Positions 4,701 to 51,041 of a stretch of 64,000 bases of DNA are shown here, in pieces. The position numbers and the translations under genes are program-made. Source of the stretch: an uncultured Candidatus Saccharibacteria bacterium (GTDB lineage: Bacteria; Patescibacteriota; Minisyncoccia; UBA6257; 2-01-FULL-56-20); the NCBI GenBank assembly GCA_964365185.1, contig CAYIOP010000001.1, positions 180,579 to 244,578 on the forward strand, given 5' to 3'. The notes below the pieces were generated by a model. That model did not search any database. It was not told the origin of the DNA and saw nothing but the letters and a program-made list of their open reading frames with translations. Each line of letters starts with the position of its first letter. The stretch's first letter is position 1.

Positions 4701-5614
4701 CCACGACCTGGAGCAGAATTATCTCTAATTCTTCCTCCAGAACCAGTTTCTGCGCCAGGATAAGGAGCAACTAATGTTGGATGATTGTGCGTTTCAGCTG
4801 TACAGGCGATGTGCCAAAATCCTTTCTGTTGAATAAGTCGGGCGGGATAACCGGGACTTTCCGCTATAAAAGCGGTGATGTTATGTCCACGAATTACTCC
4901 GGCGTTATCGCGAAAGGCAAGTACGCTGTTTGAATCGTTAAGAACTTTAAGAGGTGTTCTAACAATATCAAAAAGCGAGTGCGGCATTTCTGACCCATCG
5001 ATGACAAGTTTGCCTTTGAAAAACCAGTGTCGACTATGTTCGCTGTTGGCATTGCCAATTTGGAAAATCTCAACGTCAGTGGGATTTTTCTTTCGACGAA
5101 GAAAAATGCGGGTGTAGTGATCAATATCCCAGCTATCCATTCCTAAACCAAGATCAATGTTGAGATCTCGAAGCGCATCTGCGCCACGCTCGAGTATTGG
5201 AATGACTCGCATTGATTTAGGTGTAATGGTTTGAGTAAATGTTGAAATTGACTCTAAATAAACAACTTGAGTCATTCGATCTAAGTGAGAAGCAATAATA
5301 ATTTCTTCAGTTATCAAATTTGATAACTGATAGCGCAGCGACCGTTCAATTCTTGTGACCTTGGTAAGTCCCATAGATTGACAGATCGCAACAGCATTAG
5401 ATGAAAAAGGAGTTTCAACACTTAGTCGTGGTCCAATCTCCAGAATGCGGCCTTTCTCAAAGAATGGCTTGAACCTAGTTTTTTCTGGCTCAAATGTTTC
5501 GGCTATCAGCCATCTGATGCGTTCTGTTTCTTGTTCGGTGAGTGGCGCCGAGGTTTCGATATAGAGACATTGCTCGATTGCGCTATCCACCTCTCGGTAG
5601 ATTTTTATAAGCAT
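1799..5614 (-). CDS. purL: Phosphoribosylformylglycinamidine synthase, large single-chain form (FGAM synthetase with a C-terminal glutamine amidotransferase)
   Basis: 1271 aa. The AIR-synthase-related repeat domains and a C-terminal GATase with GVCNGCQ are present. An SD AAGGAAGG lies 6 nt upstream of the ATG. Confidence 0.9.
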   Translation of the reverse strand: MLIKIYREVDSAIEQCLYIETSAPLTEQETERIRWLIAETFEPEKTRFKPFFEKGRILEIGPRLSVETPFSSNAVAICQSMGLTKVTRIERSLRYQLSNLITEEIIIASHLDRMTQVVYLESISTFTQTITPKSMRVIPILERGADALRDLNIDLGLGMDSWDIDHYTRIFLRRKKNPTDVEIFQIGNANSEHSRHWFFKGKLVIDGSEMPHSLFDIVRTPLKVLNDSNSVLAFRDNAGVIRGHNITAFIAESPGYPARLIQQKGFWHIACTAETHNHPTLVAPYPGAETGSGGRIRDNSAPGRGALPFAGLAGYCVGNLFFPDYQIPGENIGGEETQQYASPAQILIEGSNGISDYGNRFGEPLIGGFTRTFGQVVNGERREFRKPVLYTGGVGRIQAIHSEKNRPETGMLIIRIGGPAYRIGIGGGSASSMMQGENTADLDFNSVQRGNAEMENRANRVIRACIERGDKNPIESIHDQGAGGPSNVLTELLEPAGGRIDIRKIILGDRTLSVLEIWSAEYQEGYGLLIQPTRLEEFKTICERERVNCEVVGDITGDGHITVIDSQDGATPVCLNLEDILTGIPQKTFELERQSRQFSSLSLPPDLKIEDALRNVFRLPQVGSKGFLVHKVDRSVTGLVARQQCCGPAQIPVADVSVTADGYFGTTGAATAIGEQPIKMLLNPAAGARMAVGEMLTNLASAKISELKDVRCRVNWMWPAKLSGEGALLYDAATALRDFMIALGIAADGGKDSLSMAATVNGTIVKSPGELVILGYAPVPNITKVMTPDFKRAGDSLIGFIDLGSGKNRLGGSSLAQAYGQVGNESPDVDNPSFLGSAFRAVQELIDGNYITALHDRSDGGLITSVIEMCLAANCGANISISKNSDVFAELFSEELGFVFEYLPEKEAVINAILSLYHVPFQCLGTTMTVQSFVVRWRAQEGIFFSKPLKQLRSWWEETSSRLELLQTSTSTTESEVKTHNQLKNPKYHLSFYPSTDTPNVSFSSIRPRVAILREEGTNGDREMAVAFFTAGFEPWDITMSDLLSKRSTLDEFRGLVFPGGFSFMDVFDSGKGWGGVIRFNPELQEMFDRFYNRLDTFSLGVCNGCQLMALLGWVPWRGLSEIKQPRFVRNFSCRFESRWAEVQVTESPSIFFSGMKGSVLGIWVAHGEGRLFFPDPSLVEIIKRESLAPLMYVDPEGVPTEEYPYNPNGSQLGLTALCSPDGRHLAMMPHPERCFLLWQWPWMPEDFRKNLTVSPWLRMFQNAKKWCLEH

Positions 5615-5796
5615 AACGGCCTTCCTTTCGTCCGTTTATTTATTGTTTTCAAGTTACATAATAACAAAGAGCTAAAGTTCTAGGTGCATCCTATCAATAA
5701 AGGCAGAAGATGTAAAATTAGGGTTCTTGAAGAAAGATTCTTTTTTGATTCGATATAAAAAAACAGAGTGGCACTAATTTTTAGCGCTCACTCTGC

Positions 5797-6321
5797 TTAT
5801 GGGTTGGATAATACGAGAAAGATGGACAGGCATATGGCCGCGTAGACGCCAGCAATGAAATCGTCCAGCAAAACTCCGTGGGCGTTTTTCATTCTATCAA
5901 AGAAACGTGTTGGGGGAATTTTGATAATATCAAAGAAGCGAAACAGAACGAAGATGAGCGGTATAACTTTCCAGTTATAATCTACCTTAAAGATGATTAG
6001 TGGAAGACAGGATACTAGCATGCCCAACACTTCGTCGATGACAATTTGGTTTTGATCTTTTGTTTTGGCTTGACCTCGCCAATCAATTCTTGTCCCTAGT
6101 TCTTTCTCTGTTATTGGTATACTCCAAAGCCCTATAAGGTAGATCAAAATCAGAATGACAAAAAAATAGAGGATGCTGCTGTGGGAGAAAAATAACGCAA
6201 GAAGACAAAACGGAATGCTGAAAAAACTTCCGTAGGTTCCTGCCATGCTTTGTAGTCCAATAGGCCGTATTAAACCAGAGTAAAACCAGGTCGCGATTAA
6301 AACTGCTGTTCTATTTTTCAA
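5797..6321 (-). CDS. pgpA: Phosphatidylglycerophosphatase A
   Basis: PgpA-family motifs match: ATWFYSGLIRP..AGTYGSFFSIPF, IVIDEVLGML, FRFFDIIKIPPTRFFD and HGVLLDDFIAGV. Confidence 0.75.
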   Translation of the reverse strand: MKNRTAVLIATWFYSGLIRPIGLQSMAGTYGSFFSIPFCLLALFFSHSSILYFFVILILIYLIGLWSIPITEKELGTRIDWRGQAKTKDQNQIVIDEVLGMLVSCLPLIIFKVDYNWKVIPLIFVLFRFFDIIKIPPTRFFDRMKNAHGVLLDDFIAGVYAAICLSIFLVLSNP

Positions 6322-6393
6322 AGAGCACCTCCAAAGTTATTAAGAACTGCTAGTAAGGTATCTTAGGAAATTTGAAATGTCAAAGAAGAGGGT

Positions 6394-6469
6394 TGGGCGG
6401 GTCCGGCAGGAGTCGAACCTGCAGTTCTGGTTTTGGAGACCAGTGGTTTGCCATTAACCGACGGACCCG
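6394..6469 (-). tRNA. tRNA-Trp (anticodon CCA)
   Basis: Hand-folded cloverleaf with acceptor CGGGTCC/GGACCCG, anticodon loop CU-CCA-AA, T-loop GGTTCGACTCC and an encoded CCA. Confidence 0.85.
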
Positions 6470-6514
6470 TTTTGGAGACCCGCCATAGGCGGGCAGGCCT
6501 CGCTAATTATCACT

Positions 6515-6546
6515 TTCCTCCGGAGGAGGATCCGCCTTTGGCGGAA
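6515..6546 (+). repeat. Dispersed triple-palindrome repeat, copy A (TCCTCCGGAGGAGGATCCGCCTTTGGCGGAA)
   Basis: One of 5 near-identical copies in this window (see findings). Confidence 0.7.
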
Positions 6547-6609
6547 ACTAAGCTCCCCTATCCATGCGCATGTAACATGTATCACGCAACATGTAACAAG
6601 AGAATTTTA

Positions 6610-6651
6610 CTATTTTCTGCTCTCCTTATGTAGGGTGTGTTTTCTACACCC
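6610..6651 (-). other. Degenerate tandem duplicate of the rpmG 3' end (encodes ...[13 protein letters not shown])
   Basis: Reverse-complement translation matches the last 12 codons of rpmG, with many synonymous differences. It lies ~65 nt downstream of the real stop. Confidence 0.5.
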
Positions 6652-6713
6652 CCTCGACTCATTTCATTCGCTCGGGGCAAGCAATAGTTTACCCAGAGAT
6701 TGAAGTTGTATTT

Positions 6714-6881
6714 CTACTTTTTACTTTCCTTATGTAGGGTATGCTTGCGGCACCAGCTACAATACTTTTTGAGTTCTATTTTTTTCTCAACTTTCTTTTT
6801 GTTTTTATCGGCATAAATAGCCCGTTTGCACGTGGCGCATCTTAAACGTATTAATCTTTCGGCGCGTTTGATTTTGGCCAT
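6714..6881 (-). CDS. rpmG: 50S ribosomal protein L33 (zinc-ribbon form)
   Basis: Hand translation gives [55 protein letters not shown], with CxxC...CxxC. It is missing from the ORF track (55 aa). It sits upstream of tRNA-Trp, as in many bacteria. Confidence 0.8.
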
Positions 6882-6979
6882 GGTAAATCATGAAACATGT
6901 AGCATGTAACATGTAGCCAATATAGTAATCCAAAAATCGAAAGGAGTCAATTTGGGGGTTAAATTCTGTGTTTCTTTAT

Positions 6980-7008
6980 TTGCCTCTGCTGTCTAAATAC
7001 TGTAAATT
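6980..7008 (+). promoter_or_regulatory. Candidate sigma70-type promoter for tRNA-Thr(GGU)
   Basis: TTGCCT-17 nt-TGnTAAATT (extended -10), ~15 nt upstream of the tRNA 5' end. Confidence 0.3.
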
Positions 7009-7023
7009 GAATATTGCCCAAAA

Positions 7024-7095
7024 GCCGTTGTAGTTCAGTGGCAGAACGTTTTCTTGGTAAGAAAAAGGTCGGGAGTTCGATTCTCCCCAACGGCT
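7024..7095 (+). tRNA. tRNA-Thr (anticodon GGU)
   Basis: GCCGTTG acceptor, D-arm AGTTCAGTGGCAGAAC, anticodon loop TT-GGT-AA, T-arm GGTTCGATTCC. CCA is not encoded. Confidence 0.8.
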
Positions 7096-7107
7096 CAAAA
7101 GTGCTTG

Positions 7108-7150
7108 CAAATAAAAACCCCGGCACCTTGGTTGGTGACGGGGGTTGGGG
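7108..7150. terminator. Hairpin between tRNA-Thr and purB (possible bidirectional terminator)
   Basis: CCCCGGCACC/ttggtt/GGTGACGGGGG with flanking A/T runs. Confidence 0.35.
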
Positions 7151-7151
7151 T

Positions 7152-8513
7152 TTAACTGTTTGAATCCGCAGGTTTGGCAGAATTCTTAAAGATATATTCG
7201 ATTCCTTCTTTGATGTAGGTAATGGGATCGAAACATTTTTTTAAGGCATCCGCGCCAAGAATATCGAGGGCAGTTGCGGATTTTGTTTCGGAAATTGATT
7301 CACTGCAAAGTGAGCGGAAGAGATCGCCGTCATTGTTCTCGCTAACTTTAAATGAAAGGCGTTGGAGATAGATGTAGGCATCGTCGTAACTTATTCCGGC
7401 ACCCATCAGGGCGTTACGAACTTTCTGACTAGCCCAGGTGCCGTGAGTGGCTCCCAGGTTTTGTTTCATCCTTTCTGGAAAAACCTCGAGATTCTGAACT
7501 AGCCACTTCATTTTGTTTGCCATGTAGTGGACTAGGCCAGTGGCAGTCGGAAACCCTTCTCTTTCAACGTTGGATTGGGAAATGTCTCGGCATTCTGGAG
7601 TAGCAATGTTTTCGAAGGCAGCACCAGTATGACCTCTTACTTCTATCGCCATACCCATCAGCCGTTCAGTTAAAATAGGATTACGTTTGTGGGCCATAGC
7701 AGAAGAGCCGCGCTGTCTTGGACTTCTGGGCTCTCTGAGTTCGCCGACATCGCTTCTCATCATTTCCCAAAAAGTTCTGGCAATTTGTTCAATACTGGCG
7801 GCAGCAATGGCTAACACGCTCATTAAAGCGGCGTGTCGATCGCGCTGAAGGATCTGGGTTTCGGCGGGAGCTTGTTTAAGTCCAAGGATTGCCAAAGCGT
7901 CATCCCCTATGCGGGGATCCATACCGGCGAAATTACCGACGGCTCCGGAGATTTTAGCTTCGCCTAACTCTTCGATCATGATCCGATCTACTCGATTTAT
8001 ACTCCTTTTAATAGATTCAGAGAAAACAAGCAGGAGATGACCGAAGGTGTCGGGTTCGGCGAACTGGCCGTGGGTGCGAGCAATCATCAAGGTCCATTGA
8101 TGTTCGACGGCTTTTTGTCGCAGAGCTTGATAGAGTTCGAATAAACTCTGACGAATTAAAGCCATAGCTTCGCGGAGCATGAGCACAAGGGCCGGATCTT
8201 CGATATCAAAGGAAGTAAGATATCTATGAAATTCTTCTTTGCAGTGACCCCATCCATTCGCCACTAGATATTCTTGAACCGAAACAACGAAGGCAATGAA
8301 GTCGTGATTATATTCGGCCTCAAGCTCATCGATCCGATCGGGATTGATGACTATGCCGGAACTGATGATATCTTGATAAATACCTCTATCAAGATTGCCG
8401 GCTTTAAAACGCGCTTCGAGATAGGCCTTTTCAACTTCAAGCCAATACTCGAATTTAGTTTTGAGATCCAGCCAGAGCTTTTTCATATCTGGCAGAGTGT
8501 AACGTTTCAGCAT
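7152..8513 (-). CDS. purB: Adenylosuccinate lyase
   Basis: 453 aa with the fumarate-lyase signature GSSAMAHKRNP. Confidence 0.9.
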   Translation of the reverse strand: MLKRYTLPDMKKLWLDLKTKFEYWLEVEKAYLEARFKAGNLDRGIYQDIISSGIVINPDRIDELEAEYNHDFIAFVVSVQEYLVANGWGHCKEEFHRYLTSFDIEDPALVLMLREAMALIRQSLFELYQALRQKAVEHQWTLMIARTHGQFAEPDTFGHLLLVFSESIKRSINRVDRIMIEELGEAKISGAVGNFAGMDPRIGDDALAILGLKQAPAETQILQRDRHAALMSVLAIAAASIEQIARTFWEMMRSDVGELREPRSPRQRGSSAMAHKRNPILTERLMGMAIEVRGHTGAAFENIATPECRDISQSNVEREGFPTATGLVHYMANKMKWLVQNLEVFPERMKQNLGATHGTWASQKVRNALMGAGISYDDAYIYLQRLSFKVSENNDGDLFRSLCSESISETKSATALDILGADALKKCFDPITYIKEGIEYIFKNSAKPADSNS

Positions 8514-8614
8514 AAAATACCTCCTGCTGAAGTTAGGGTTGCATTTCGTTTATGGTTTACAAGTTACCGAGAGATATAGTAATCCTGTGAATAATTTTTG
8601 TCCAGTTTCTAATG

Positions 8615-8686
8615 AGCCAGCGGTCGGATTTGAACCGACGACCTACTGTTTACAAAACAGTTGCTCTGCCACTGAGCTACGCTGGC
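8615..8686 (-). tRNA. tRNA-Thr (anticodon UGU)
   Basis: Reverse complement is GCCAGCGTAGCTCAGTGGCAGAGC...ACTGT-TTTGTAA-ACAGT...GGTTCAAATCC...CGCTGGC. Confidence 0.8.
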
Positions 8687-8790
8687 GATAAACGACTATA
8701 TTAATGAGATTAGCGAAAAAATGTAAATAAATCAAAAGCCCGTCTTATTACGACGAGCTTTGAAAATGTTTTCGGATGACAAGATGACAA

Positions 8791-9168
8791 TTAGTTGAAA
8801 GTAATTTCTGGGCAAATTTTTTTCCAGAATGCGACGATCGCCTTTCCTAGGAATCTGGGGATGTCGGATTTGATGATGCGGCGCATGACAAAAAATAGAA
8901 TAATCCCGAATAGGAGAATTAATAACCACTCTCCCAGGTCATTCCGAACAATATGAACTGCATTATCAGAACCGGGAATGATAATATGTTTAACCAGCCC
9001 ATAAATCAGTAGAGATACCGCAGCAAATATGAGTGCGATAAATAACCCGGTTATGACGATTTCGTGATATCTTTCACTCCAAATTTTGAAAGGCCAGCAA
9101 AATTGCTCTTGGCCAAATCGATCTACCTTCGCAAATTGAAGCGATGGCCGTCCGCCGAAAATAAGCAC
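8791..9168 (-). CDS. Hypothetical small membrane protein (two predicted TM helices)
   Basis: ORF with hydrophobic segments. An overlapping out-of-frame ORF (9074..9400) suggests a possible frameshift or a spurious call. Confidence 0.3.
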   Translation of the reverse strand: MLIFGGRPSLQFAKVDRFGQEQFCWPFKIWSERYHEIVITGLFIALIFAAVSLLIYGLVKHIIIPGSDNAVHIVRNDLGEWLLILLFGIILFFVMRRIIKSDIPRFLGKAIVAFWKKICPEITFN

Positions 9169-9403
9169 CAGCCAACCAAGGATTAGCCAGGCCAGAAATA
9201 TTCCAGGTCAAACAATGAAAAAAGCGAAGATGAATCTTGGCAGCAATCCACAGAGATGGAATTTCTGTTGGTAAAAGGGAAGGTTTGAATAACGAAAGCA
9301 AATTTTCGCAACCCACCCGTCTTTCCTGAGTGTCATAAAACCTCCGATAAATTGTTAAGTTGCTTGGGGTAAAAATAGCAGTTTTAGCTAATAAAATCAA
9401 GGG

Positions 9404-9432
9404 TTTTGAGGCGCTAAAATATAGGTTATAAT
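9404..9432 (+). promoter_or_regulatory. Candidate dnaE promoter (near-leaderless)
   Basis: TATAAT at 9427-9432 lies 12 nt before the ATG. A weak -35 (tTTGAg) is present. No SD is visible. Confidence 0.3.
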
Positions 9433-9443
9433 AGACCTATCTT

Positions 9444-12400
9444 ATGGGAAAATTTGTCCACTTACATACACATTCTCATTATTCCCTGCTCGATGGGCTC
9501 GCGAAAATTGATGACTTGATTTTACGCACTAAGGAATTAGGGATGGATTCTTTGGCGATTACGGACCACGGGGTTTTATACGGCGCAATTGAGTTTTACA
9601 AAAAAGCCAAGAAGGCCGGCATCAAGCCGATTTTAGGAGTGGAGGCGTATATCGCTCAAGGCAGTCGGCATAAAAAAGAGGCGGGAGAGAAATACTATCA
9701 TTTGATTTTACTTTGCGAGAATCTGACTGGTTGGAAAAATCTGGTGAAACTGATATCAATCGCGCATTTAGAGGGTTTTTATTATAAGCCGAGAATTGAT
9801 AAGGAACTTTTAAGAGAATATCACGAGGGGTTGATTGGCCTTTCAGCTTGTTTGACCGGCGAGGTAAATAAATTATTAGTCAATGATAAATTTGAAGAAG
9901 CCAAACAAGCGGCAAAAGAATACGAAGAAATTTTAGGCAAAGAAAATTTCTTTTTAGAAATTGGCGATCACCCGAATATTCCGGAAGCGACAAAACTCCG
10001 AGAACGAGTTATTAAACTTTCGAAGGAAGTGGAAATAGGAATGGTGGGCACGCAAGACATCCATTACGCGAAACCAGAGGATGCGGAATACCACGACATA
10101 CTAGTCGCGGTTCAGACCGGCAGCCGGCTGTCAGACGACGACCGATTAACGCTTAAGGCCGATGATTTTTCTATGACCTCGCCTGAGGTAATGATAGAGA
10201 AATTTAAAGATGTGCCGGAGGCGATTATAAATACCGTAAAAATCGCGGAGCGATGCCAGGTTGAGCTTGAGTTGGGAAAAATTATTCTGCCAAATTTTCC
10301 GAAACCGGACGGCAAAGCCGCGAATGAATATCTAGAAGAACTAATTCAAGAAAGAATTAACAAAAGATTCCCCGGAGAAAAATTAACTCAAGAAATAAGA
10401 GATCGACTTCAAATGGAACTGGGAGTAATCGAGAAAACCGGATTTGCGGATTACTTTTTGATTGTTCAGGACTTTATTCAATGGGCGAAAACGCATGGCA
10501 TTGCCGTTGGTCCGGGCCGGGGTTCGGCCGCCGGCAGTATTGTCTCGTTCATATTGGGCATTACGGATATTGACCCGATTGAATACGGACTGCTATTTGA
10601 AAGATTTTTAAACCCAGACAGAATTCAGATGCCGGATGTGGATGTTGATTTTGCTGACACCGGCCGCGATAGAGTTTTGGCTTATGTTAAAGAAAAATAC
10701 GGAGAAAATCGCGTGGCCCAGATTATTACTTTTGGAACAATGGCGGCCAGAGCCGGAGTGAGAGACGCGGGGCGAGCCATGGGCCTTTCATATAATTTCT
10801 GCGATCAGCTGGCAAAACTGATTCCTTTTAACGCCAAACTAGACGAGGCAATAGAGAAAGTGCCAGAGTTAAAAGAATTTTATGAGACCAATGAAGACGC
10901 CAAACGAGTGCTTGAAGCGGCCAAACACTTAGAAGGCGTGGCGAGGCACGCTTCGGTACATGCTTGCGGAATAGTCATTTCAAAAGAATCGCTAATGGAA
11001 TATTTGCCGCTTCAGCTGGCTCCGCAAGACAAAAACAATATTATTACACAATTTGAGATGCACGCGGTTGAAGACCTGGGACTTTTAAAAATAGATTTTT
11101 TGGGCCTTAAAAATTTAACTATTATCGAGGAAACAACAAAGTTAGTGAAAGAACGACAGGGAATAAATATAAAAATATCGGAGTTACCGCTGAATGACGA
11201 AAAGACATTTAAACTACTAAGAAGAGCGGATACCACGGGAGTTTTTCAATTGGAGGGCGGGGGCATGAGGCGATATTTAAAAGAACTGCAGCCATCGGAA
11301 CTTGAGGATATTATTGCCATGATTTCTCTTTACCGGCCGGGAACGCTCGACGCGGGAATGGTGCCGCATTATATTTCCCGCAAACTGGGCAGAGAGAAAG
11401 TGACCTATCTTCATCCCAAATTGGAGCCAATACTAAAAAAAACATACGGCATTATGGTTTACCAAGAGCAACTAATGGAGGTGGCGAGGGTGCTCGCGGG
11501 ATTTACTTTTTCAGAGGCCGATACCTTAAGAAAAGCGGTGGGGAAAAAAATAAAATCATTACTTAAAGAACAGGAGGAAAAACTTATCTCCGGAATGATT
11601 AAAAACGGAATTGACAATAATAAAGCCAAAGAAATTTGGCAGTGGTTTGAACCCTTTGCCAGGTACGGATTTAATCGCTCACACGCGGCGAGCTATGCGC
11701 TTATCGGATATCAAACAGCGTACTTGAAGGCCAACTTTCCTGAAGAATTTACGGCGAGCTTGTTAAATTCAGAATTAGACGATATTGATCGCATCGCATT
11801 TCTGGTTGATGATGCCAAAAAAGCCAATATCTTAATCTTGCCGCCGGATATTAATAAAAGCTTTGTAAATTTCACGCCGGAAGATGGAAAAATCAGATTT
11901 GGACTTTTAGCCATTAAAAATGTAGGTGAACAAATTGCCAATAATATCATCAAAGAGCGAATCCGGGGTGGCGACTTTCAGGATTTGAAGGATTTTTTGG
12001 GCAGAATTCAGCATAAGGACCTAAACAAAAAATCATTGGAGAGTTTAATTAAGGGAGGGGCGTTAGATAATTTAGGCATTGAAAGAAATCAACTAATTCA
12101 AAATATTGATGAAATTTTAAAATTTAGCGCGGTGACCAAAAGAGGTTTAGTTTCAAATCACAACTCTCTTTTTGGAGAAACGATGGTTGGTTTTAGCGCG
12201 TTGAAATTAAAAGAGGCGCCGCCAGCAACTCCAGAAGAAAGATTAATTTGGGAAAAAGAGCTTTTAGGACTATATCTTTCGAACCATCCACTTAAAAGAT
12301 TCGCGGATAAAATGAAGGCCTCACAAGCCAGGCCAATCAATGAAGTCAAGCTCATTAAAAACGAGAATCAGATTTTTCGAATCGCGGGCTTGCTTTCTAA

Positions 12401-16724: not shown

Positions 16725-17379
16725 AAATTTGATTGAAAACTTTGTAGGGCGCCGGTTCGGCGCTAATTTTGTAAATTTTGTACTTTCTGGCGGCCAATAT
16801 TTCTATAATCGGTTCGGTTCTTTTTCGATATTCCCCTAATCGTACTTTGATAGTTTCGACTGTGTCTAAAGTCCGGCGATAAAACGGCCCGGCGCAAACC
16901 GGACAATGTTTTGGATTTCTAGATGGATAGTAGGTGGTTAAAAGTGGAGATTTACAGACCGAACAAAGAATGCGGCGACTGTTTCTTTTTATAGAAAGTT
17001 CTTCGCTCATTTTTAAAACAAGAACATAAATATTTTTTCGGCCATAGAGACGATCCAAAATCGGCAGAACTTTTTCGGATTCATAGATAGTTCTTGGCGA
17101 GCCGCTAAAAACTATGCCGTGGCCGGTTTTAGCTATAGTTCGAATATGTTGGATGATTTCTCGCGCCACAAAACTAGGAGTCATTAGCTTACCGGAATCA
17201 AAAAGTTTTCTTTCTCGAGAAATAACTTTATTTTTTTTGCCCGTTCCGCCATGAACCAGCGACTCCAAAAAGCGGCCGGTGTCAAAATGCATTAAATCAA
17301 GCTTCCCCGCCAAAAGATTGGCTTGAGTGCCTTTACCGCTGCCTGGAGGCCCGTACATAATAACCGCGATTTTAGCCAT
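16693..17379 (-). CDS. adk: Adenylate kinase (with Zn lid CxxC...CxxC)
   Basis: P-loop GPPGSGKGTQ and lid CSVCKSP...CPVCAG. Confidence 0.9.
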   Translation of the reverse strand: MAKIAVIMYGPPGSGKGTQANLLAGKLDLMHFDTGRFLESLVHGGTGKKNKVISRERKLFDSGKLMTPSFVAREIIQHIRTIAKTGHGIVFSGSPRTIYESEKVLPILDRLYGRKNIYVLVLKMSEELSIKRNSRRILCSVCKSPLLTTYYPSRNPKHCPVCAGPFYRRTLDTVETIKVRLGEYRKRTEPIIEILAARKYKIYKISAEPAPYKVFNQIYGHLKKSRRN

Positions 17380-19162: not shown

Positions 19163-19624
19163 TTATTTTTTCAACTTTTGAAGCGCTCGAATAGTCGCCA
19201 TGGCGTTGGTTAATTTATTAGTTGTCCGTCCAAGATTTTTAGCAGAAGCATCTTTGACGCCGGCTAAACTCAAAACAAAGCGCGCGGCGCCACCGGCTTT
19301 TAGGCCGTGTCCGGCTGCGGAGGGTTTAATCAAAATCTTCGCGGCGCTGTATTTTGCCATAACTTCGTGAGTAATAGTCCGACCGTCTTTAAGATTCACA
19401 AACAAAAGGGCTTTTTTGGCTTTTTCCTTAGCTTTACCAACAGCAGATTGAACATCGAGGCCTTTGGCGACACCGATGCCAACCCTGCCTTTTTCATCGC
19501 CGATAGCAACCGTGGCTCTAAACCGAAACCGCTTGCCGCCAGCGACGACCCGAGTGACCCGCCTTAAATCAAGGACTTTTTCTTTAAATTCGCTTTTTAC
19601 CATTTTCGGAATAAAATTACGCAT
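19163..19624 (-). CDS. rpsE: 30S ribosomal protein S5
   Basis: Typical S5 sequence. It is followed directly (4 nt) by rplO, with no L30 gene between. Confidence 0.9.
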   Translation of the reverse strand: MRNFIPKMVKSEFKEKVLDLRRVTRVVAGGKRFRFRATVAIGDEKGRVGIGVAKGLDVQSAVGKAKEKAKKALLFVNLKDGRTITHEVMAKYSAAKILIKPSAAGHGLKAGGAARFVLSLAGVKDASAKNLGRTTNKLTNAMATIRALQKLKK

Positions 19625-28077: not shown

Positions 28078-29274
28078 CTATTTCAAGATTTTGGTCACCA
28101 CGCCAGCTCCAACTGTTTTACCTCCCTCTCTAATTGCAAATCGCTGCTTTTCCTCAAGAGCAACTGGAGCAATAAGTTTAACGACTAACTTGATAGTGTC
28201 TCCAGGCATCACCATTTCAGTGCCTTCGGGCAAAGTGACTTCTCCGGTGACATCAGTGGTGCGAATATAAAACTGGGGCTTATATCCTTTAAAGAAAGGA
28301 GTGTGACGCCCACCTTCTTCTTTGCTTAAAATGTAAACTTCGGCATCAAATTCAGTATGAGGATTGACGGCTCCAGGTTTAGTAATAACCTGACCTCTCT
28401 CTACATCTTCTTTCTTTAATCCCCTAAGCAGAATACCGACGTTGTCACCAGCTAAACCTTCGTCAAGAAGTTTATTGAACATTTCAATGCCCGTAACCAC
28501 GGTTTTTTGAGTAGGCCTTAAACCAACAATTTCAATTTCTTCATTGACTTTAACCCGACCTCTTTCAGCTCGGCCCGTAACTACCGTGCCTCTTCCCTCA
28601 ATCGAGAAAATATCTTCAATCGGCATCAAAAATGGCTTATCTAATTCTCGGACTGGTTCTGGAATGTATTCATCAAGAGCTTTGATAAGCTCCACGATTG
28701 GTTTGGCAGCCTCATCATCAGCAGACGTAGCTTCCAAGGCCTTAAGAGCTGAACCGCGAATAATCGGGGTGGTGTCGCCAGGAAATTCATACTTTTTCAA
28801 AAGCTCCCTAATTTCTGATTCGACAAGATCAATTAATTCTGGGTCATCAACCTGATCGATTTTATTAATAAAAACAACGATCGCCGGAACACCCACCTGT
28901 CTGGCTAAAAGAATGTGTTCCCTAGTTTGAGGCATAGGGCCGTCGGTCGCGGCAACCACCAGAATCGCGCCGTCCATCTGAGCAGCGCCAGTAATCATAT
29001 TTTTAATATAGTCAGCATGCCCCGGAGCATCAATGTGGGCGTAGTGTCTTTTTTCGGATTCATATTCCGAATGATGAAGAGCAATCGTAATTCCACGAGC
29101 TTTTTCTTCTGGGGCGTTATCAATTTGATCGACTGTTTCAACTCGGCTTTTAAAACCCTTAAGGTTTAAAACTTTGGTGATAGCGGCAGTTAAAGTGGTT
29201 TTGCCGTGGTCAACGTGACCAATAGTGCCGACATTGACGTGGGGTTTAGAACGCTCAAAAACTTCTTTAGCCAT
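28078..29274 (-). CDS. tuf: Elongation factor Tu
   Basis: GHVDHGKTT and the other G-motifs. 398 aa. Confidence 0.95.
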
Positions 29275-29816: not shown

Positions 29817-31922
29817 CTATTTGCGCTTCCCTTCGACAATTAATTGCTCAATGTTTTTAGGAACTGACTCATAATGGTCGAATTCCATAGTGAAAGAGCC
29901 GCGGCCTTGAGTCATGGAACGAAGTTCGGTGGCATAGCCAAACATCTCAGAGAGAGGCACTTGAGCGTCAATAACCTTAACAGTGGCCCGATCACCCAAA
30001 CTTTCAACTTTACCTCGGCGAGCGTTTAAGTTGCCGGTAACATCACCCAAAAATTGGGCTGGCACCAAAACTTGGGTTTTCATAATCGGCTCTAAAATAA
30101 CCGGCTTGGCTAATTTGGCGCCTTCTTGAAAAGCAATTGAGCCAGCAATTTTGAAAGCCGCTTCAGAAGAATCAACATCATGGAATGAGCCGTCAAAAAG
30201 AGTAACTTCGACATCAATCATTGGATAATGAGCTACCACGCCTTTATCAACAGCTTCTTTAACGCCCTTTTCAACCGCTGGGATAAATTCTTTGGGAATA
30301 TCACCGCCTTTAATCGCGTCAACAAAAACAAAACCTTCGCCTCTCAAAAGGGGTTTTAACGTAAGCCAAACATGGCCATATTGACCCCGACCGCCGGACT
30401 GACGAATATATTTGCCTTCGGCTTCGGATTCGGCGGTGATGGTTTCTTTATAAGCTACCTGCGGCCGGCCGACATTGGCCTCAACGCTAAATTCTCTTTT
30501 CATTCGATCAACAATGATTTCAAGGTGAAGCTCTCCCATACCAGAGATAATAGTCTCGCCGGTTTCAAGATCGCCGCTCACTCTAAAAGTCGGGTCTTCT
30601 TCCGCCAGACGCCTTAAAGCCATGCCCATTTTTTCTTGGTCGATTTTGGTCTTCGGATCAATCCGAATGCCAATAACCGGTTCGGGGAAAATTATGCGTT
30701 CCAGAATTAAAGGATTGTCCGGAGAACAAAGGGTGTCTCCAGTAGTGGTATTTTTGAGCCCAACAATCGCGGCGATTTCACCGGCGTAGACCTCGTCCAC
30801 TTCTTCTCTTTGGTTAGCATGCATTCTTACAATCCGACCGACTCTTTCTTGTTCGCCTTTATTGGCGTTTAAAATATAACTGCCTCGTTTAATAGTGCCG
30901 GAATAATTTCTAAAATAAGTTAGGGTCCCCACGTAAGGATCAGCGGCTACTTTAAAAGCCAAAGCAGATAACGGCTCTTCATCTTTAGGATAACGCAGGA
31001 CTTCTTCCGAGGTCTTAGGGTGAAGGCCTTTGGTTGCGGACAGGTCTAAAGGAGACGGCAGATAATCAATAACCGCATCTAGAACGAACTGGACGCCTTT
31101 ATTTTTAAGAGCTGAGCCGCAAAAAACCGGCACTAACTTATTTTCAATTGTAGCTTTCCGAAGAATTCTTTTTAAATCCTCGGTTTTAATTTCTTTGCCC
31201 TCAAGATATTCGCTCATTAACGCGTCGTCGTTTTCGACAATTTTTTCAATCAGGTGATGCCTAGCTTTTTTAACGGCGTCTTCAAGATTTTGAGGAATCG
31301 GAATTTCAACAATTTTTTCTCCGTGATCGCCTTGAAATTCAAAGGCCTGATTTTTCAGAAGATCGATGACGCCACTAAAATTAGCTTCACTGCCGATTGG
31401 AAGTTCAAGCGGCACAGCATTCGGAGTTAACCGCTCGTGAATAGAGAGCAAACTTTTTTCGAAATTCGCGCCCATCCGGTCGAGTTTATTGATAAAACAA
31501 ATTCTAGGCACCTTGTATTCATCGGCGTAGTGCCAGTTTGTTTCTGATTGCGGCTCAACGCCAGCCACGCCATCAAAAACAACCACCGCGCCATCTAGAA
31601 CTCGAAGAGAACGCTTAACTTCAACAGTAAAATCAATATGGCCGGGGGTATCAATAATATTTATTCGGTGTTCAAAATTTTTATCGCCTTTTTGATAAGT
31701 CGGTGTCCAAAAAGCGGTGGTAGCGGCTGAAGTAATAGTAATACCACGCTCGCGTTCCTGTTCCATCCAATCCATCACAGTGGTGCCTTCGTGAACTTCG
31801 CCAATTTTGTGAGAAATACCGGTATAAAAAAGGACCCTCTCAGTAACGGTGGTTTTGCCGGCATCAATGTGGGCAATAATGCCAATATTTCTTATTTTTT
31901 CGATGGGGTAGGTACGAGGCAC
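29817..31922 (-). CDS. fusA: Elongation factor G
   Basis: [10 protein letters not shown]-domain and EF-G domains II-V. 701 aa. Confidence 0.95.
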
Positions 31923-33011: not shown

Positions 33012-33045
33012 ATCCGCCGGAGGCGGATCCGCCTTTGGTGGAAGG
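33012..33045 (+). repeat. Dispersed triple-palindrome repeat, copy C
   Basis: ATCCGCCGGAGGCGGATCCGCCTTTGGTGGAAGG. Confidence 0.7.
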
Positions 33046-38093: not shown

Positions 38094-38816
38094 ATGATTA
38101 AATATACTATGAAAAAGAAGATGGAAGCTAAAGAACTAAGGAAGCGGGGTATGAGCTATCGCGAGATTTCGAGTTATTTGGATATAGCTAAAAGCACAGC
38201 TAAACTCTGGTGTAAAGATGTAGAGTTGAATCAAGAGCAAAGAAAAATTTTATACAAAAAGCAAATAGAGCTAATGGCGAGAGGGCCGAATAGTAGTCGC
38301 GCAAGACGAAACAGGGAGATTGAAAAAATTCTTTCCAGCGCAGAAAAAGAGCTTAAATTACCGATTGATTCTGAAACTTACCGACTACTCGGAGCAATGA
38401 TATATTGGGGAGAAGGAGATAAAACACAGCATTTCGGTATTGCTAACTCAGATCCTTTTTTAATAAAATTCATGATTAAATGGTTAGAAGATATATTGGG
38501 TATTATGCCAAACCGCATAAAAGCTTATTTGAATATTCATTCTCAGCAGAATGATATAGAAATTAAAAAATTTTGGTCAGAATTAACTGAAATTCCCATT
38601 CAAAATTTTGGAAAGACTTTTATAAAACCGACAAATAAAAATTTTAAGAAAAATAATCTTTATTATGGAACGATTCGTATAATAATTTCGAAAGGAACTG
38701 ATTTACGCTATCGTGTTATGGGTTGGATTTCAGCTCTTCTCGCTAGTCAAAATCTTGAGGTTGAAAAAATTCAAAACAAGTGGCATAAATTAAGGGAAGA
38801 ATATAGCCGCCCATAG
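38094..38816 (+). CDS. HTH-domain protein with a LAGLIDADG-like motif (possible homing-endonuclease-like or DNA-binding mobile-element protein)
   Basis: N-terminal HTH (SYREISSYLDIAKSTAKLW). LLGAMIYWGEGDKT resembles a LAGLIDADG motif. A TATAAT lies 8 nt upstream of the ATG (leaderless). The stop codon lies inside tRNA-Lys. Confidence 0.4.
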   Translation: MIKYTMKKKMEAKELRKRGMSYREISSYLDIAKSTAKLWCKDVELNQEQRKILYKKQIELMARGPNSSRARRNREIEKILSSAEKELKLPIDSETYRLLGAMIYWGEGDKTQHFGIANSDPFLIKFMIKWLEDILGIMPNRIKAYLNIHSQQNDIEIKKFWSELTEIPIQNFGKTFIKPTNKNFKKNNLYYGTIRIIISKGTDLRYRVMGWISALLASQNLEVEKIQNKWHKLREEYSRP

Positions 38817-38880
38817 CTCAGTCTGGTAGAGCTGCTCGCTCTTAACGAGAAGGTCCCAGGTTCAAATCCTGGTGGGCGGA
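38807..38880 (+). tRNA. tRNA-Lys (anticodon CUU)
   Basis: CCGCCCA/TGGGCGG acceptor, GCTCAGTCTGGTAGAGC D-arm, anticodon loop CT-CTT-AA, T-arm GGTTCAAATCC. Confidence 0.75.
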
Positions 38881-39043
38881 CGATTAAAAAATCTTTGCTC
38901 CGTACTCGAGCTTAGATTTTTTTACCTGCCTTGCCAAAGATTCATCGAAGGCAGGAGTCCCGAGCGAGGTCGCCTTAGCGACTGACGAGGGGCTACCTAA
39001 TTATTCTGATTTCAAAAAATACCCATAAAGGTATAATTAGGGC

Positions 39044-47784: not shown

Positions 47785-48264
47785 TCATTCCACTATAGAA
47801 GAATATTCATTTATAATGGAATAGAAAAAAGGTATGCTTTGGGCGAATGGGAATCTTTCTATTTAGAATTAAGAATTAGGAATAATGAATTAGGAGATAA
47901 TCTTATTGAAATTTCTGACTGGATTTTGTAGAATAATTTTGAAATCTTTCACTAGATTTCTCTGACTCCGTAGTGAGCGAAGTGCTACTTGCCTCTGTTC
48001 ATCTTACCCAGTTCCAAGTAGGTGTCTTACCAAATAATCCACCACTTTGCCATGACCTACGGGGTCTTTTTTTATTTCGATTAAATAGGTTGATTTTTAA
48101 AGATTGTTTCCTATAATGATTATGCTCCTTCTATGACAATAGTGGGAGTAAATTGTTTCTAGCACCCGGTGGGATGAAGTACAGATAGTCAACACTTCAT
48201 AACACCGGTGCTTTTTTATTTGATTGATTGGAAAACTTAAGAAAATTAAGTAAAATCATTAGAT

Positions 48265-51041
48265 ATGAGTGAACTTGGACCGAGATACGATCACAAAGAA
48301 ATTGAAGATAAGATTTATAAACTCTGGGAGAAATCCGGGTATTTCTCCGCCGAAGGCGGATCCGCCTCTGGCGGAAATCCTGATAAGCGCAAACCCTATT
48401 CAATAATTATGCCGCCGAATAATGCGAACGGCTCGCTGCATTTGGGGCACGCGGTAGGACTGACTTTGCAGGATATTTTAATTCGATACTGGCGGATGCA
48501 AGGTCGAAAAACGCTTTGGCTGCCGGGGGCGGATCACGCGGGATTTGAAACCCAGGTGGTGTATGACAAAAAACTGGATAAGGAAGGACGGAATAGATTT
48601 ACCATTCCCCGCGAGGAACTTTGGAGAGAAATTTGGGATTTTACACAGACCAACAAAAAATTGATGCAGGAGCAGACCAAGAAACTCGGAGCTTCTTGTG
48701 ATTGGTCGCGCGAGCGATTTACGCTGGACCCGGAAATTATAAAAGTCGTTTATGAGACCTTTGAACAGTTATATAAAGACGGCTTGGCTTACCGCGATTT
48801 AAAAGTGGTGAACTGGTGCCCTAAACATCGCACCGCGCTTTCGGATTTGGAAGTAAAATTTGTGGAGCAAGAAGACCCGCTTTATTTTATAAAATACGGA
48901 CCGCTTACGGTGGCGACAGTGCGTCCAGAGACGAAATTTGGCGACACAGGGCTCGCGGTTAATCCTAAAGACGCGCGATATAAAAAATATATAGGTAAGG
49001 AAATAGAGGCAACCGGAGTTTTGGGACCGCTTAAATTTAAAGTGATTGCGGATGAGGCGGTGGACCTAAAATTTGGCACGGGAGTGGTTAAAGTGACACC
49101 AGCACATGACCAGACGGACTTTGAAATTTGGCAAAGGCATAAAGATGAAATCCCGGGACCAAAGCAGATTATTGATGAGTTGGGGCGACTGATGACTAGT
49201 AGCGGACTCGGCGAGTACGGAGGGTTGAAAGTTATGGAAGCGCGGGAAAAGGTGGTGGAAGCAATGAAGCAAATTGGAATTTTAGAAAAAGTAGACCCGA
49301 ACTATAAACACCAAATCGCGACTTGTTATAAGTGTGGCAACACGCTTGAGCCATTGCCTAAGATGCAGTGGTTTATTCGTATGACTACTCAAGCTAAAAG
49401 CGAAAAGCTAAAAGCGAAAAGTAATGGAAAGTCGCTTAGGGATTTGGCGGTGGAGGCGGTTAAAAGCGGAAGGGTAAAATTTACGCCGAAGCGGGCGGAG
49501 AAAGTTTTCATGCACTGGATGAAAAATATTCGGGATTGGAACATATCGCGGCAGATTGTTTGGGGAATTCGGATTCCGGCGTGGTTTTGCGTTAGTTGTG
49601 GGAAAGAGAAAATTAATCCTCTTATAAAATCCAAGTGGTTTTTGGTGCGACACGGAGAAACGGATTGGAATGTTGAGGGAAGGGCAAATGGTCATACGGA
49701 TATACCGCTGAATAAAATAGGATTTCAACAAGCTAATATGGCCGCTGAAAAATTAAAAGGTGAAAATATTGATTTGGTTCTATGCTCAGATCTTAAACGA
49801 GCTTCTCAAACCGCAGAGATTATAGCTAAAAGATTAGGTGTTGAATTAATAATAGATAAAGATCTGAGAGAAAGAAACATGGGCGTTGTTGAAGGAATGT
49901 TAAGAGAGGAATGGAAACAAAAACATCCAAATATGTCAGAAAGTTTAGAAAGTAGGCCGCTAGACGGAGAAAGCTTAGGTGAATTACAAGATAGAATATT
50001 TAAAACTTTTAATAAGCACAAATCACAGCATAAACATAAAAATATTGTCCTAGTAACTCATGGCGGCTCAATTAGATCATTGTTAGGCAAACTCAGAAAT
50101 ATGAAATTTGAGGATTGGGCTCATTTACAGTCAAAAAATACCGAAATTTTTAAATTTGATATTAGCGAAGATTGTGGAAAATGTGGTTTAGATTTATACG
50201 AGCAAGACCCGGATGTTTTTGATACTTGGTTTTCGTCGGGGCAGTGGCCGTTCGCGACTCTAATGAGTCGTGAAAGTTCAAAGTTAAAAGCGAAAAGCGA
50301 AAAGTTGGGAAAGGACGATTTCAAAAATTTCTATCCGACGGATGTGATGGAAACGGGCTATGACATTTTGTTTTTCTGGGTGGCGAGGATGATTATGCTG
50401 GGGATTTACCGAACCGGCAAAGTGCCTTTTAAAAACGTCTACTTGCACGGACTAGTGCGCGACAAAGACCGGCAGAAGATGTCTAATCCAAAGGCAATGT
50501 GATTGACCCGCTGGGCGTAGCCGAGACCTACGGCACGGACGCGGTTAGAATGGCGCTCGTTGTTGGCAATACGCCCGGCAATGACATTGTGATTTCAGAG
50601 GACAAAATCCGCGGGTATCGAAATTTCGCCACGAAAATTTGGAACGTAGCCAGATTTGTGATGATGAACTCGCCCTCCAAAATTTTGCGGAGCAAAACTT
50701 GGGAGGGTAAACCTTCTTTCACTACGCAAGATAAAAAAGATTTAGCGGCGCTTAAGAAAATAAAAACACAAGTGGCTAACCATATTGAAAAATTCGAATT
50801 TCATTTGGCGAGTGAAAAAGCGTACCACTATTTCTGGCATACTTTGGCTGATAAAATAATCGAAGAGACCAAGCCTAGATTGAACAGGAAGGATTCGAAA
50901 GATGCGGCAGTGGCTTATTTTAAACTCGAGACCGTTTTGCTTGAGTCGTTAAAGATACTGCACCCTTTTATGCCGTATGTGACTGAAGAGATTTGGCAGA
51001 AATTTAGGCCGGGAACAATATTGATGATAGAAAAATACTAA
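48265..51041 (+). CDS. valS: Valyl-tRNA synthetase carrying a nested histidine-phosphatase domain and a -1 frameshift in the KMSKS codons
   Basis: Colinear with E. coli ValS: PPNNANGSLHLGHA, TLWLPGADHAGFETQVV, CP1 TVRPETKFGDTGLAVNP / GTGVVKVTPAHDQTDFEIWQRH, VFDTWFSSGQWPF, QKMSNP|KGNVIDPL, GYRNFATKIWNVARFVMMN. Reading frame 1 ends at 50502; the frame continues as 50488..51041. Confidence 0.85.
48344..48377 (+). repeat. Dispersed triple-palindrome repeat, copy E (in-frame inside valS, encoding AEGGSASGGN)
   Basis: TCTCCGCCGAAGGCGGATCCGCCTCTGGCGGAAAT. Confidence 0.65.
49642..50169 (+). other. Histidine phosphatase (phosphoglycerate-mutase-like, RHG motif) domain inserted in the ValS zinc knuckle
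   Basis: LVRHGETDWN...LVLCSDLKRASQTAEII...LVTHGGSIRSLL, ~176 aa. It is flanked by CVSCG (upstream) and CGKCG (downstream). Confidence 0.7.

What the first reader, a model, noticed from the sequence alone, without database searches (positions are those of the whole stretch)
50476..50505. -1 frameshift exactly in the KMSKS motif codons of valS
The sequence reads AAG ATG TCT AAT CCA AAG GCA ATG TGA. Inserting a single A (TCT AAA TCC AAA GGC AAT GTG ATT GAC) restores the canonical K-M-S-K-S-K-G-N-V-I-D-P-L. The downstream frame (50488..51041) continues with perfect ValS homology (GNVIDPLGVAETYGTDAVR...). This is either a homopolymer (AAA to AA) sequencing or assembly error, a genuine pseudogenising lesion in the only valS, or a site needing ribosomal +1 frameshifting.
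Basis: seen in the sequence. Interest (0 to 1): 0.5.

Follow-up and report, generated by a model that had tools for sequence, protein, structure and literature searches.

The report
One-base gap breaking valS, probably artefact
The valyl-tRNA synthetase gene in this window is broken by a missing A inside its catalytic KMSKS motif, but four other assemblies of the same groundwater bacterium carry the gene intact, so the break is most likely a local error (or a rare dead allele) in this one assembly, not a recoding signal.

Summary
At 50476-50502 the sequence reads AAG ATG TCT AAT CCA AAG GCA ATG TGA. The valS ORF (48265-50502, 745 aa) stops there, and ValRS homology continues in the -1 frame (50487-51041).

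Four independent assemblies of the same Hainich groundwater Paceibacteria population carry an intact 925-aa gene reading TCT AAA TCC AAG GGC: ENA replicates R1, R2 and R3, and Logan run ERR3858116.

Over 58,257 bases shared with the R1 contigs, the window shows 17 substitutions and one indel. That indel is this one. A G>A change lies 7 nt downstream (50492) and is synonymous in the ValRS frame.

All 37 related genomes keep K-x-[ST]-K-S in frame. The only candidate slip site is A_AAG at 50490-50493. It has no significant downstream structure, and the genome encodes a cognate tRNA-Lys(CUU). The shifted product, KMSNPKG, would lack the invariant second lysine.

Probabilities:
- Local assembly or sequencing artefact: about 0.7.
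- Genuine recent null allele: about 0.2.
- Functional recoding or a split enzyme: at most 0.05.

Only raw reads can settle this.

Separately, this valS carries a conserved histidine-phosphatase domain inserted in a zinc knuckle. I found no paper describing it.

The parts
48265..50502 (+). valS, N-terminal 745-codon ORF. It contains the HIGH motif, the CP1 editing domain, the inserted His_Phos_1 domain and the first half of the KMSKS loop, and ends ...RQKMSNPKAM*.
   Evidence: ORF list. Pfam tRNA-synt_1 at E 8.7e-118 on the repaired protein. NCBIfam valS 623 bits, below the 704 cut-off as a fragment.
48439..48450 (+). HIGH signature of the class I active site (H-L-G-H, aa 59-62).
   Evidence: Translation. 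H59, G61 and H62 are invariant in the 28-sequence alignment.
49630..50175 (+). Histidine-phosphatase (His_Phos_1) domain, aa 456-637, inserted between CxxC (C442/C445) and CxxC (C637/C640) of valS. It is not part of the lesion but is part of the gene.
   Evidence: Pfam PF00300 at E 3.4e-54. Catalytic R462, H463, R512, E569 and H599 are kept in 21 or more of the 22 homologues that have the insert. AlphaFold block-mean pLDDT is mostly 87-97 over the insert.
50485..50492 (+). The lesion. The window reads AA (50485-50486) where four other assemblies read AAA, and A at 50492 where they read G. The G>A change is Lys AAG>AAA, synonymous in the ValRS frame.
   Evidence: Base-by-base blastn comparison with L001, L002, L003, L004 and L005.
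50490..50493 (+). A_AAG tetramer in the 0 frame (CCA AAG). It is the only plausible -1 slip site between the -1-frame stop (50484-50486) and the 0-frame stop (50500-50502), and it is created by the G>A change.
   Evidence: Sequence. The motif hierarchy, and roughly 0.15% slippage without a stimulator, come from PMC4066793.
50487..51041 (+). valS C-terminal continuation in the -1 frame (SKGNVIDPL... through the anticodon-binding domain). The gene caller's ORF is 50499-51041 (GTG start, 180 aa).
   Evidence: Translation. ORF list. NCBIfam valS profile positions 525-695 at E 1.2e-44. Pfam Anticodon_1.

Best explanation
The break is most likely not a property of the organism. It looks like a local consensus error in the one assembly this window comes from: an NCBI contig of 248,509 bp from a Hainich groundwater Paceibacteria population.

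The population's valS is a normal, intact 925-aa valine-tRNA ligase with a canonical KMSKS loop. In this assembly one A of the Lys codon AAA (the second K of KMSKS) is missing, and a G 7 nt downstream reads A. The ORF therefore runs into TGA six codons later, and the remaining 185 codons appear as a second ORF in the -1 frame.

What is shown:
- the lesion itself;
- the intact allele in four other assemblies;
- near-identity of the flanking DNA.

What is inferred: that the lesion is technical. Candidate causes are a low-coverage or strain-mixed region, a co-assembly, or a gap fill. The alternative is a real minority allele.
For: 1. Four independent assemblies all read AAG ATG TCT AAA TCC AAG GGC AAT GTG and encode an uninterrupted gene. 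They are ENA metaSPAdes assemblies of H43 0.1-um replicates R1, R2 and R3, and a Logan assembly of run ERR3858116.

2. The window and the R1 contigs share 58,257 bases with 17 substitutions and a single indel, which is this one. Apart from the two changes at the KMSKS site, valS is base-for-base identical to the intact R1, R2 and Logan alleles. There is no further decay.

3. The accompanying G>A is a synonymous third-position change in the ValRS frame. So are 14 of the 15 other coding differences between the window and R1, which cluster in conserved genes. The window consensus therefore looks like a mosaic of co-occurring strains, a setting prone to local assembly errors.

4. In every individual Hainich assembly found, the organism has only 2-6x coverage.

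5. Base rate: curating a 1.13-Mb CPR genome uncovered 13 local assembly errors, which is about 0.7 per 60 kb (PMC7111523).

6. KMSKS is in frame in all 37 related genomes, and the second K is invariant in all 28 aligned homologues. A majority allele destroying it in an essential gene is biologically implausible.
Against: No reads were available, so the artefact is inferred and not seen.

The assembly is otherwise clean: there is no other indel in 58 kb and no other split gene. It is therefore not a generally error-prone long-read assembly.

Illumina data rarely drop a base from a 3-base run.

The window also has a private intergenic SNP at 33012, absent from five other assemblies. It may therefore represent a slightly different real genotype, from another sample or time point, in which the allele could be genuine.

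The lesion is two changes within 8 nt, which a single complex mutation could also produce.
Confidence: 0.7

Rival explanations
1. Genuine, very recent loss-of-function allele. A real sub-lineage carries a complex mutation (1-nt deletion plus a nearby transition) that truncates ValRS inside KMSKS. The gene is a fresh pseudogene. It would be tolerated only if another valS exists elsewhere in the genome, or the allele is a transient minority variant picked up by the assembler.
For: The sequence as deposited carries the lesion, and both fragments are in the protein collection from NCBI. The window has at least one other private difference, at 33012, from all other assemblies. Real microdiversity exists in this population. 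HP-less ValRS paralogue-like proteins occur in related Paceibacteria, so a second copy cannot be excluded.
Against: Apart from the lesion, valS is base-for-base identical to the intact R1, R2 and Logan alleles. There is no second tRNA-synt_1 gene in the 64-kb window. Each of the 37 related genomes contributed exactly one valS locus, though that search was not designed to find paralogues. A null allele of an essential single-copy aaRS cannot be the majority genotype. The allele was not found in JGI metagenome contigs.
Confidence: 0.2
2. Translational rescue by -1 ribosomal frameshifting. Ribosomes slip back one base on U_CCA_AAG (50487-50493), with tRNA-Lys re-pairing from AAG to AAA. They continue into GGC AAT GTG and make a full-length ValRS whose loop reads KMSNPKGNV. 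This would be a 'saviour' frameshift compensating for the deletion.
For: The required direction is -1, and the only open overlap (50487-50499) contains A_AAG. That is the most shift-prone tetramer in E. coli (PMC4066793). The G>A change that accompanies the deletion is what creates it. The 0-frame stop lies two codons downstream. Frameshifting that corrects indels is a recognised category (PMC5009743 abstract).
Against: Without a stimulator, tetramers shift at about 0.15%, close to background, and reach at most 5.6% with a strong pseudoknot. The 87 nt downstream fold no better than shuffles (z = -1.26, 22 of 200 shuffles as stable). The heptamer is not X_XXZ_ZZN, and no SD-like sequence lies upstream (read). 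The genome encodes tRNA-Lys(CUU), cognate to AAG, which disfavours slippage (reasoning). No relative has a frameshift here (0 of 42 loci). The product would replace the invariant second Lys and Ser of KMSKS with Asn and Pro (for invariance). From established aaRS enzymology, recalled and not tested here, that lysine stabilises the adenylation transition state.
Confidence: 0.03
3. A functional split ValRS. The 745-aa and 180-aa ORFs are translated separately and assemble into a heterodimeric enzyme, as in naturally split class I synthetases. The GTG start at 50499 overlaps the TGA stop at 50500-50502, a GTGA arrangement that would allow translational coupling.
For: The stop/start overlap GTGA and an AAAGG four nt upstream of the GTG are present. 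Split class Ia enzymes are known (Aquifex aeolicus LeuRS, from memory and not checked here).
Against: The split falls inside the KMSKS loop, so neither piece has an intact motif. The same GTGATTGAC bases encode N-V-I-D in the intact alleles, so the 'start' is incidental. No relative is split. Each fragment scores below the valS cut-offs.
Confidence: 0.01

Closest known systems
Local assembly errors in metagenome-assembled genomes (Chen, Anantharaman, Shaiber, Eren & Banfield 2020, Genome Res; PMC7111523)
   Same: A short stretch of consensus disagrees with other assemblies of the same population and breaks a conserved gene. It occurs in a low-coverage, strain-mixed CPR genome. The density of about one per 60 kb matches the 13 errors per 1.13 Mb reported there.
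   Different: That paper identifies errors by the lack of read support, which I could not test. Here the error status rests on disagreement with four other assemblies.
Programmed -1 frameshift sites using A_AAG (IS3/IS1 transposases, dnaX; Sharma et al. 2014, PMC4066793)
   Same: An A_AAG tetramer lies in the 0 frame immediately before a 0-frame stop, with the continuation in the -1 frame.
   Different: There is no canonical heptamer, no significant downstream hairpin or pseudoknot, no upstream SD-like element and no conservation in relatives. A cognate tRNA-Lys(CUU) is present, and the shifted product would lack a catalytic residue.
Thermus thermophilus valyl-tRNA synthetase (PDB 1GAX) and bacterial valS equivalogs (NF004349, TIGR00422)
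   Same: The repaired or intact protein passes both equivalog cut-offs. Its model matches 1GAX (Foldseek E 1.4e-47, TM 0.69/0.74). HIGH, KMSKS, the CP1 editing domain and the anticodon-binding domain are all present.
   Different: A roughly 180-aa histidine-phosphatase domain is inserted in the second zinc knuckle. The match to the two passing valS models stops at about position 700 of 860, so the C-terminal part of typical ValRS is absent. In the window itself the KMSKS codons are frameshifted.
Naturally split class Ia synthetase (Aquifex aeolicus LeuRS alpha/beta; recalled from memory)
   Same: Two adjacent ORFs together cover one class Ia synthetase, with the break near KMSKS.
   Different: The break is inside the motif, it is not conserved in any relative, and it differs from the intact alleles by a single missing base.

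Membership tests
Valine-tRNA ligase (ValRS, class Ia) | Whole-protein score above the curated valS equivalog cut-offs | tested here: met
   The intact allele P0001 scores 803.3 bits against 704 (NF004349) and 772 against 612.1 (TIGR00422). The window's two fragments alone fall below the cut-offs: 623.4 and 598.5 bits for the 745-aa piece, 152.8 and 146.2 for the 180-aa piece.
Valine-tRNA ligase (ValRS, class Ia) | HIGH and KMSKS signature motifs in one reading frame | tested here: not met
   HIGH (HLGH, aa 59-62) is present. In the window the KMSKS codons read KMSNPKAM*. The motif is intact in the four other assemblies and in all 37 relatives.
Valine-tRNA ligase (ValRS, class Ia) | ValRS fold: Rossmann core, CP1 editing domain, helical anticodon-binding domain | tested here: met
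   AlphaFold model of the intact protein (mean pLDDT 77.9). The best PDB match is 1GAX ValRS at E 1.4e-47. Pfam Anticodon_1 is present.
Programmed -1 ribosomal frameshift site | Slippery motif (X_XXZ_ZZN heptamer or Z_ZZN tetramer) inside the frame-overlap window | tested here: met
   The A_AAG tetramer at 50490-50493 lies within the overlap 50487-50499. The heptamer U_CCA_AAG is not canonical.
Programmed -1 ribosomal frameshift site | Stimulatory element: downstream hairpin or pseudoknot, or upstream SD-like sequence | tested here: not met
   The fold of 50494-50580 has MFE -33.5 kcal/mol against -29.6 +/- 3.1 for shuffles (z = -1.26). No GGAGG-like sequence is seen in the 30 nt upstream. Pseudoknots were not tested.
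Programmed -1 ribosomal frameshift site | The frameshift is conserved in orthologues | tested here: not met
   None of 37 related genomes and none of 5 near-identical loci has a frame break at KMSKS. All 120 listed homologues have uninterrupted architectures.
Programmed -1 ribosomal frameshift site | The trans-frame product is made and is functional | not testable with these tools
   The predicted product KMSNPKGNV would lack the second Lys, which is invariant in 28 of 28 aligned homologues. Proteomics or a reporter assay is needed.
Pseudogene (genuine gene decay) | The frame disruption is supported by the underlying reads or population | not testable with these tools
   No read data were available. 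Four other assemblies of the population lack the disruption.
Pseudogene (genuine gene decay) | Additional degenerative changes or relaxed constraint | tested here: not met
   Outside 50485-50492, valS is identical to the intact R1, R2 and Logan alleles.
Pseudogene (genuine gene decay) | A functional second copy elsewhere in the genome | tested here: inconclusive
   There is no second tRNA-synt_1 ORF in the 64-kb window. The rest of the genome was not available, and the source genome is not among the GTDB representatives scanned.
Assembly or sequencing artefact | Disagreement with independent assemblies of the same population, confined to a few bases | tested here: met
   There is one indel and one adjacent substitution against four assemblies, and the indel is the only one in 58,257 shared bases.
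Assembly or sequencing artefact | The consensus at the site lacks read support | not testable with these tools
   This needs read mapping to 50400-50600.

The most novel reading that the evidence does not exclude
The deletion is real and fixed in a sub-lineage that has no other valS. The linked G>A change, which creates A_AAG, would then let ribosomes shift -1 often enough to make a full-length ValRS with a non-canonical KMSNP loop. That would be a 'saviour' frameshift inside the catalytic signature of an essential aminoacyl-tRNA synthetase in a reduced-genome CPR bacterium.
Probability: 0.03. Interest if true: 0.6.

Novelty: not a real feature. Interest (0 to 1): 0.12.

Why it matters
If it is an artefact, as I think, the value is practical. 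The deposited genome would carry a falsely split or pseudogenised essential gene, which can lower completeness estimates and mislead metabolic inference. The correct 925-aa sequence is available from sister assemblies.

If the allele were real and rescued by -1 frameshifting, it would be a rare case of recoding inside the catalytic motif of an essential synthetase. The evidence here speaks against that.

The more interesting biology in this gene is unrelated to the lesion. A catalytically intact histidine-phosphatase domain is embedded in ValRS across many Paceibacteria.

Tried and rejected
Rejected on frame arithmetic: the downstream frame is -1 or +2.

2. Transcriptional slippage. Rejected because the A runs are only 2-3 bases long. 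Known cases need much longer runs (my own knowledge).

3. Asn-tRNA slippage at AAU>UAA, giving KMSNS. Rejected because re-pairing would be poor and the product would still lack the second Lys.

4. Exact look-ups of the two window fragments (P0121, P0123) to find other contigs with the broken allele. Neither is on record.

5. An exact 43-nt search for the broken allele in JGI metagenome contigs. No hits.

6. Attempts to identify the NCBI source record through neighbouring proteins (PurL, adenylosuccinate lyase, L23). Only ENA and Logan contigs came back. The source genome is also not among the GTDB representatives. The assembly method therefore remains unknown.

7. An Rfam scan for a T-box or other leader upstream of valS. 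Only tRNAs were found.

8. Literature searches for a ValRS-histidine-phosphatase fusion. Nothing relevant was found.

Full report
**Observation**

Window 50476-50502 reads AAG ATG TCT AAT CCA AAG GCA ATG TGA. The valS ORF that starts at 48265 ends at this TGA after 745 codons (...DKDRQKMSNPKAM*). The -1 frame is closed by TAA at 50484-50486 and is open from 50487 to 51041, reading SKGNVIDPLGVAETYGTDAVR....

Inserting one A after 50485 gives a 925-aa protein with KMSKSKGNVIDPL. Its Pfam domains are tRNA-synt_1, His_Phos_1 and Anticodon_1. It scores above both NCBIfam valS equivalog cut-offs (803 bits against 704; 772 against 612), whereas the two window fragments each fall below them. An AlphaFold model of the intact protein matches T. 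thermophilus ValRS 1GAX best (E 1.4e-47). The gene identity and the frame break are therefore not in doubt.

Any ribosomal rescue would need a -1 shift, not +1.

**Related sequences**

The repaired protein has a 925-aa match, listed at 100% identity, in public data (P0001). The cluster look-up shows that the window's 745-aa and 180-aa fragments come from an NCBI contig of 248,509 bp. Two intact 925-aa members come from ENA.

Fetching their contigs gave metaSPAdes assemblies of three replicate 0.1-um filter samples from well H43 of the Hainich groundwater observatory: R1 (56.9 kb, cov 6), R2 (9.0 kb, cov 4) and R3 (3.5 kb, cov 3). A Logan assembly of run ERR3858116 was also recovered.

All four read AAG ATG TCT AAA TCC AAG GGC AAT GTG, that is K-M-S-K-S-K-G-N-V in one frame. 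Relative to them the window lacks one A (AAA>AA at 50485-50486) and has A instead of G at 50492. In the ValRS frame that second change is Lys AAG>AAA, which is synonymous.

**How local the difference is**

By fetching more of the R1 contigs I could compare 58,257 of the window's 64,000 bases (5152-10513 and 11106-64000). There are 17 substitutions and one indel, and the indel is the valS one.

Of the 15 other coding differences, 14 are synonymous third-position changes. They cluster in highly conserved genes: rpsE, tuf, fusA and rpsL. R2 and R3 sometimes agree with the window and sometimes with R1. The population therefore contains closely related strains, and each consensus is a mosaic of them.

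The window-private differences against every other assembly are 33012 (intergenic), the deletion, and 50492. Outside the lesion, valS is identical to the intact R1, R2 and Logan alleles, so there is no sign of decay.

In all individual Hainich assemblies found, the organism has 2-6x coverage. The 248.5-kb contig must therefore come from a co-assembly, a hybrid assembly or another sample. I could not determine which. The published Hainich workflows include per-replicate metaSPAdes (PMC8672522) and, for another well, Illumina-plus-Nanopore hybrid assembly (10.1101/2019.12.18.880807).

**Conservation**

All 37 related genomes recovered from the GTDB representatives have K-[MFLI]-[ST]-K-S in frame. 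In a 28-sequence alignment the KMSKS residues are invariant. No homologue among the best 120 shows a split architecture.

**Could the break be decoded?**

The shift would have to occur between 50487 and 50499. The only slippery element there is A_AAG (CCA AAG, 50490-50493), which the G>A change creates. In E. coli A_AAG is the best tetramer. Even so, tetramers without a stimulator shift at about 0.15% (background 0.11%), and reach at most 5.6% with a strong pseudoknot (PMC4066793).

Several further points count against decoding here:
- The 87 nt downstream do not fold better than shuffles (z = -1.26).
- The heptamer U_CCA_AAG is non-canonical.
- No SD-like element precedes it.
- The window encodes tRNA-Lys(CUU), which reads AAG cognately and should reduce slippage (reasoning).
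- The product would read KMSNPKGNV, replacing the invariant second lysine.

Transcriptional slippage is implausible on runs of 2-3 A (my own knowledge). A functional two-piece enzyme is also implausible. The split lies inside the catalytic loop, and the apparent GTG start is simply the Val codon of N-V-I-D in the intact alleles.

**Verdict**

The most likely explanation is a local consensus error in this one assembly (about 0.7). It fits the following:
- disagreement with four other assemblies;
- confinement to 8 bases;
- the low-coverage, strain-mixed setting;
- the known base rate of local assembly errors in CPR MAGs, 13 in 1.13 Mb (PMC7111523).

A genuine, very recent null allele remains possible (about 0.2). 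The assembly is otherwise clean, Illumina seldom drops a base in a 3-base run, the window has another private SNP, and a second valS elsewhere cannot be excluded. There is none in the window. Functional recoding or a split enzyme together deserve no more than about 0.05. Only read mapping can decide.

**Noticed in passing**

A complete branch-1 histidine-phosphatase domain (aa 456-637; Pfam E 3.4e-54) is inserted between the two CxxC pairs of a zinc knuckle in the catalytic domain.

- Its catalytic Arg/His/Arg/Glu/His residues are conserved in 21 or more of the 22 homologues that carry the insert.
- It is modelled with block-mean pLDDT mostly 87-97.
- Its nearest solved relatives are small PhoE/PspA/CobC-type phosphatases (E 1e-17 to 1e-18).
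- It reaches no NCBIfam phosphatase equivalog cut-off.
- About two-thirds of the 120 best homologues have it (Liptonbacteria, Wolfebacteria, Paceibacterota and others). Sources that name them mostly use 'class I tRNA ligase family protein'. The remaining homologues listed, mostly about 700-860 aa, lack it.
- I found no paper describing it.

This insert deserves its own follow-up, independent of the frameshift.

Noticed in passing
window 49630-50175 (valS aa 456-637): A complete His_Phos_1 histidine-phosphatase domain is inserted between CxxC (C442/C445) and CxxC (C637/C640) inside ValRS. The catalytic R/H/R/E/H residues are conserved in 21 or more of 22 insert-bearing homologues. The architecture occurs in most of the top homologues, which are Paceibacteria-type lineages (Liptonbacteria, Wolfebacteria and others). 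I found no paper describing it.
   Followed up: partly
window 19382-19433, 29020-29110, 30453-30456, 32825: Differences between the window and the R1 assembly form clusters of synonymous third-position changes in rpsE, tuf, fusA and rpsL. R2 and R3 side sometimes with the window and sometimes with R1. The consensus sequences are therefore mosaics of co-occurring strains.
   Followed up: partly
window 33012: An intergenic base just upstream of rpsL differs in the window from all five other assemblies that cover it (R1, R2, R3 and two Logan runs). It is the only window-private difference apart from the valS lesion.
   Followed up: no
window 38807-38881: tRNA-Lys with anticodon CUU. AAG codons therefore have a cognate tRNA, which bears on A_AAG slipperiness.
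   Followed up: partly
window 47785-48264: A 480-nt gap with no ORF of 110 aa or more separates tsaD from valS (a 47-aa ORF at 47973-48116 lies in it). It has no Rfam match at gathering threshold, so no T-box leader was detected.
   Followed up: partly
window 63198 (L046 825-831) and window 17073-17093 (L044 3813-3935): The low-coverage R3 assembly has a 7-bp tandem duplication (CCTATAA) and about 120 extra nucleotides at the 5' end of adk relative to the window. R3 calls a 262-aa gene there with no Pfam hit, where R1 has a 221-aa ADK. These are either strain variants or local assembly errors in that assembly.
   Followed up: no
window 11106-11133: Two R1 contigs (R1_258 and R1_1429) end here and overlap by about 28 bases, while the window's assembly runs straight through. 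This is consistent with the window coming from a deeper or differently built assembly.
   Followed up: no
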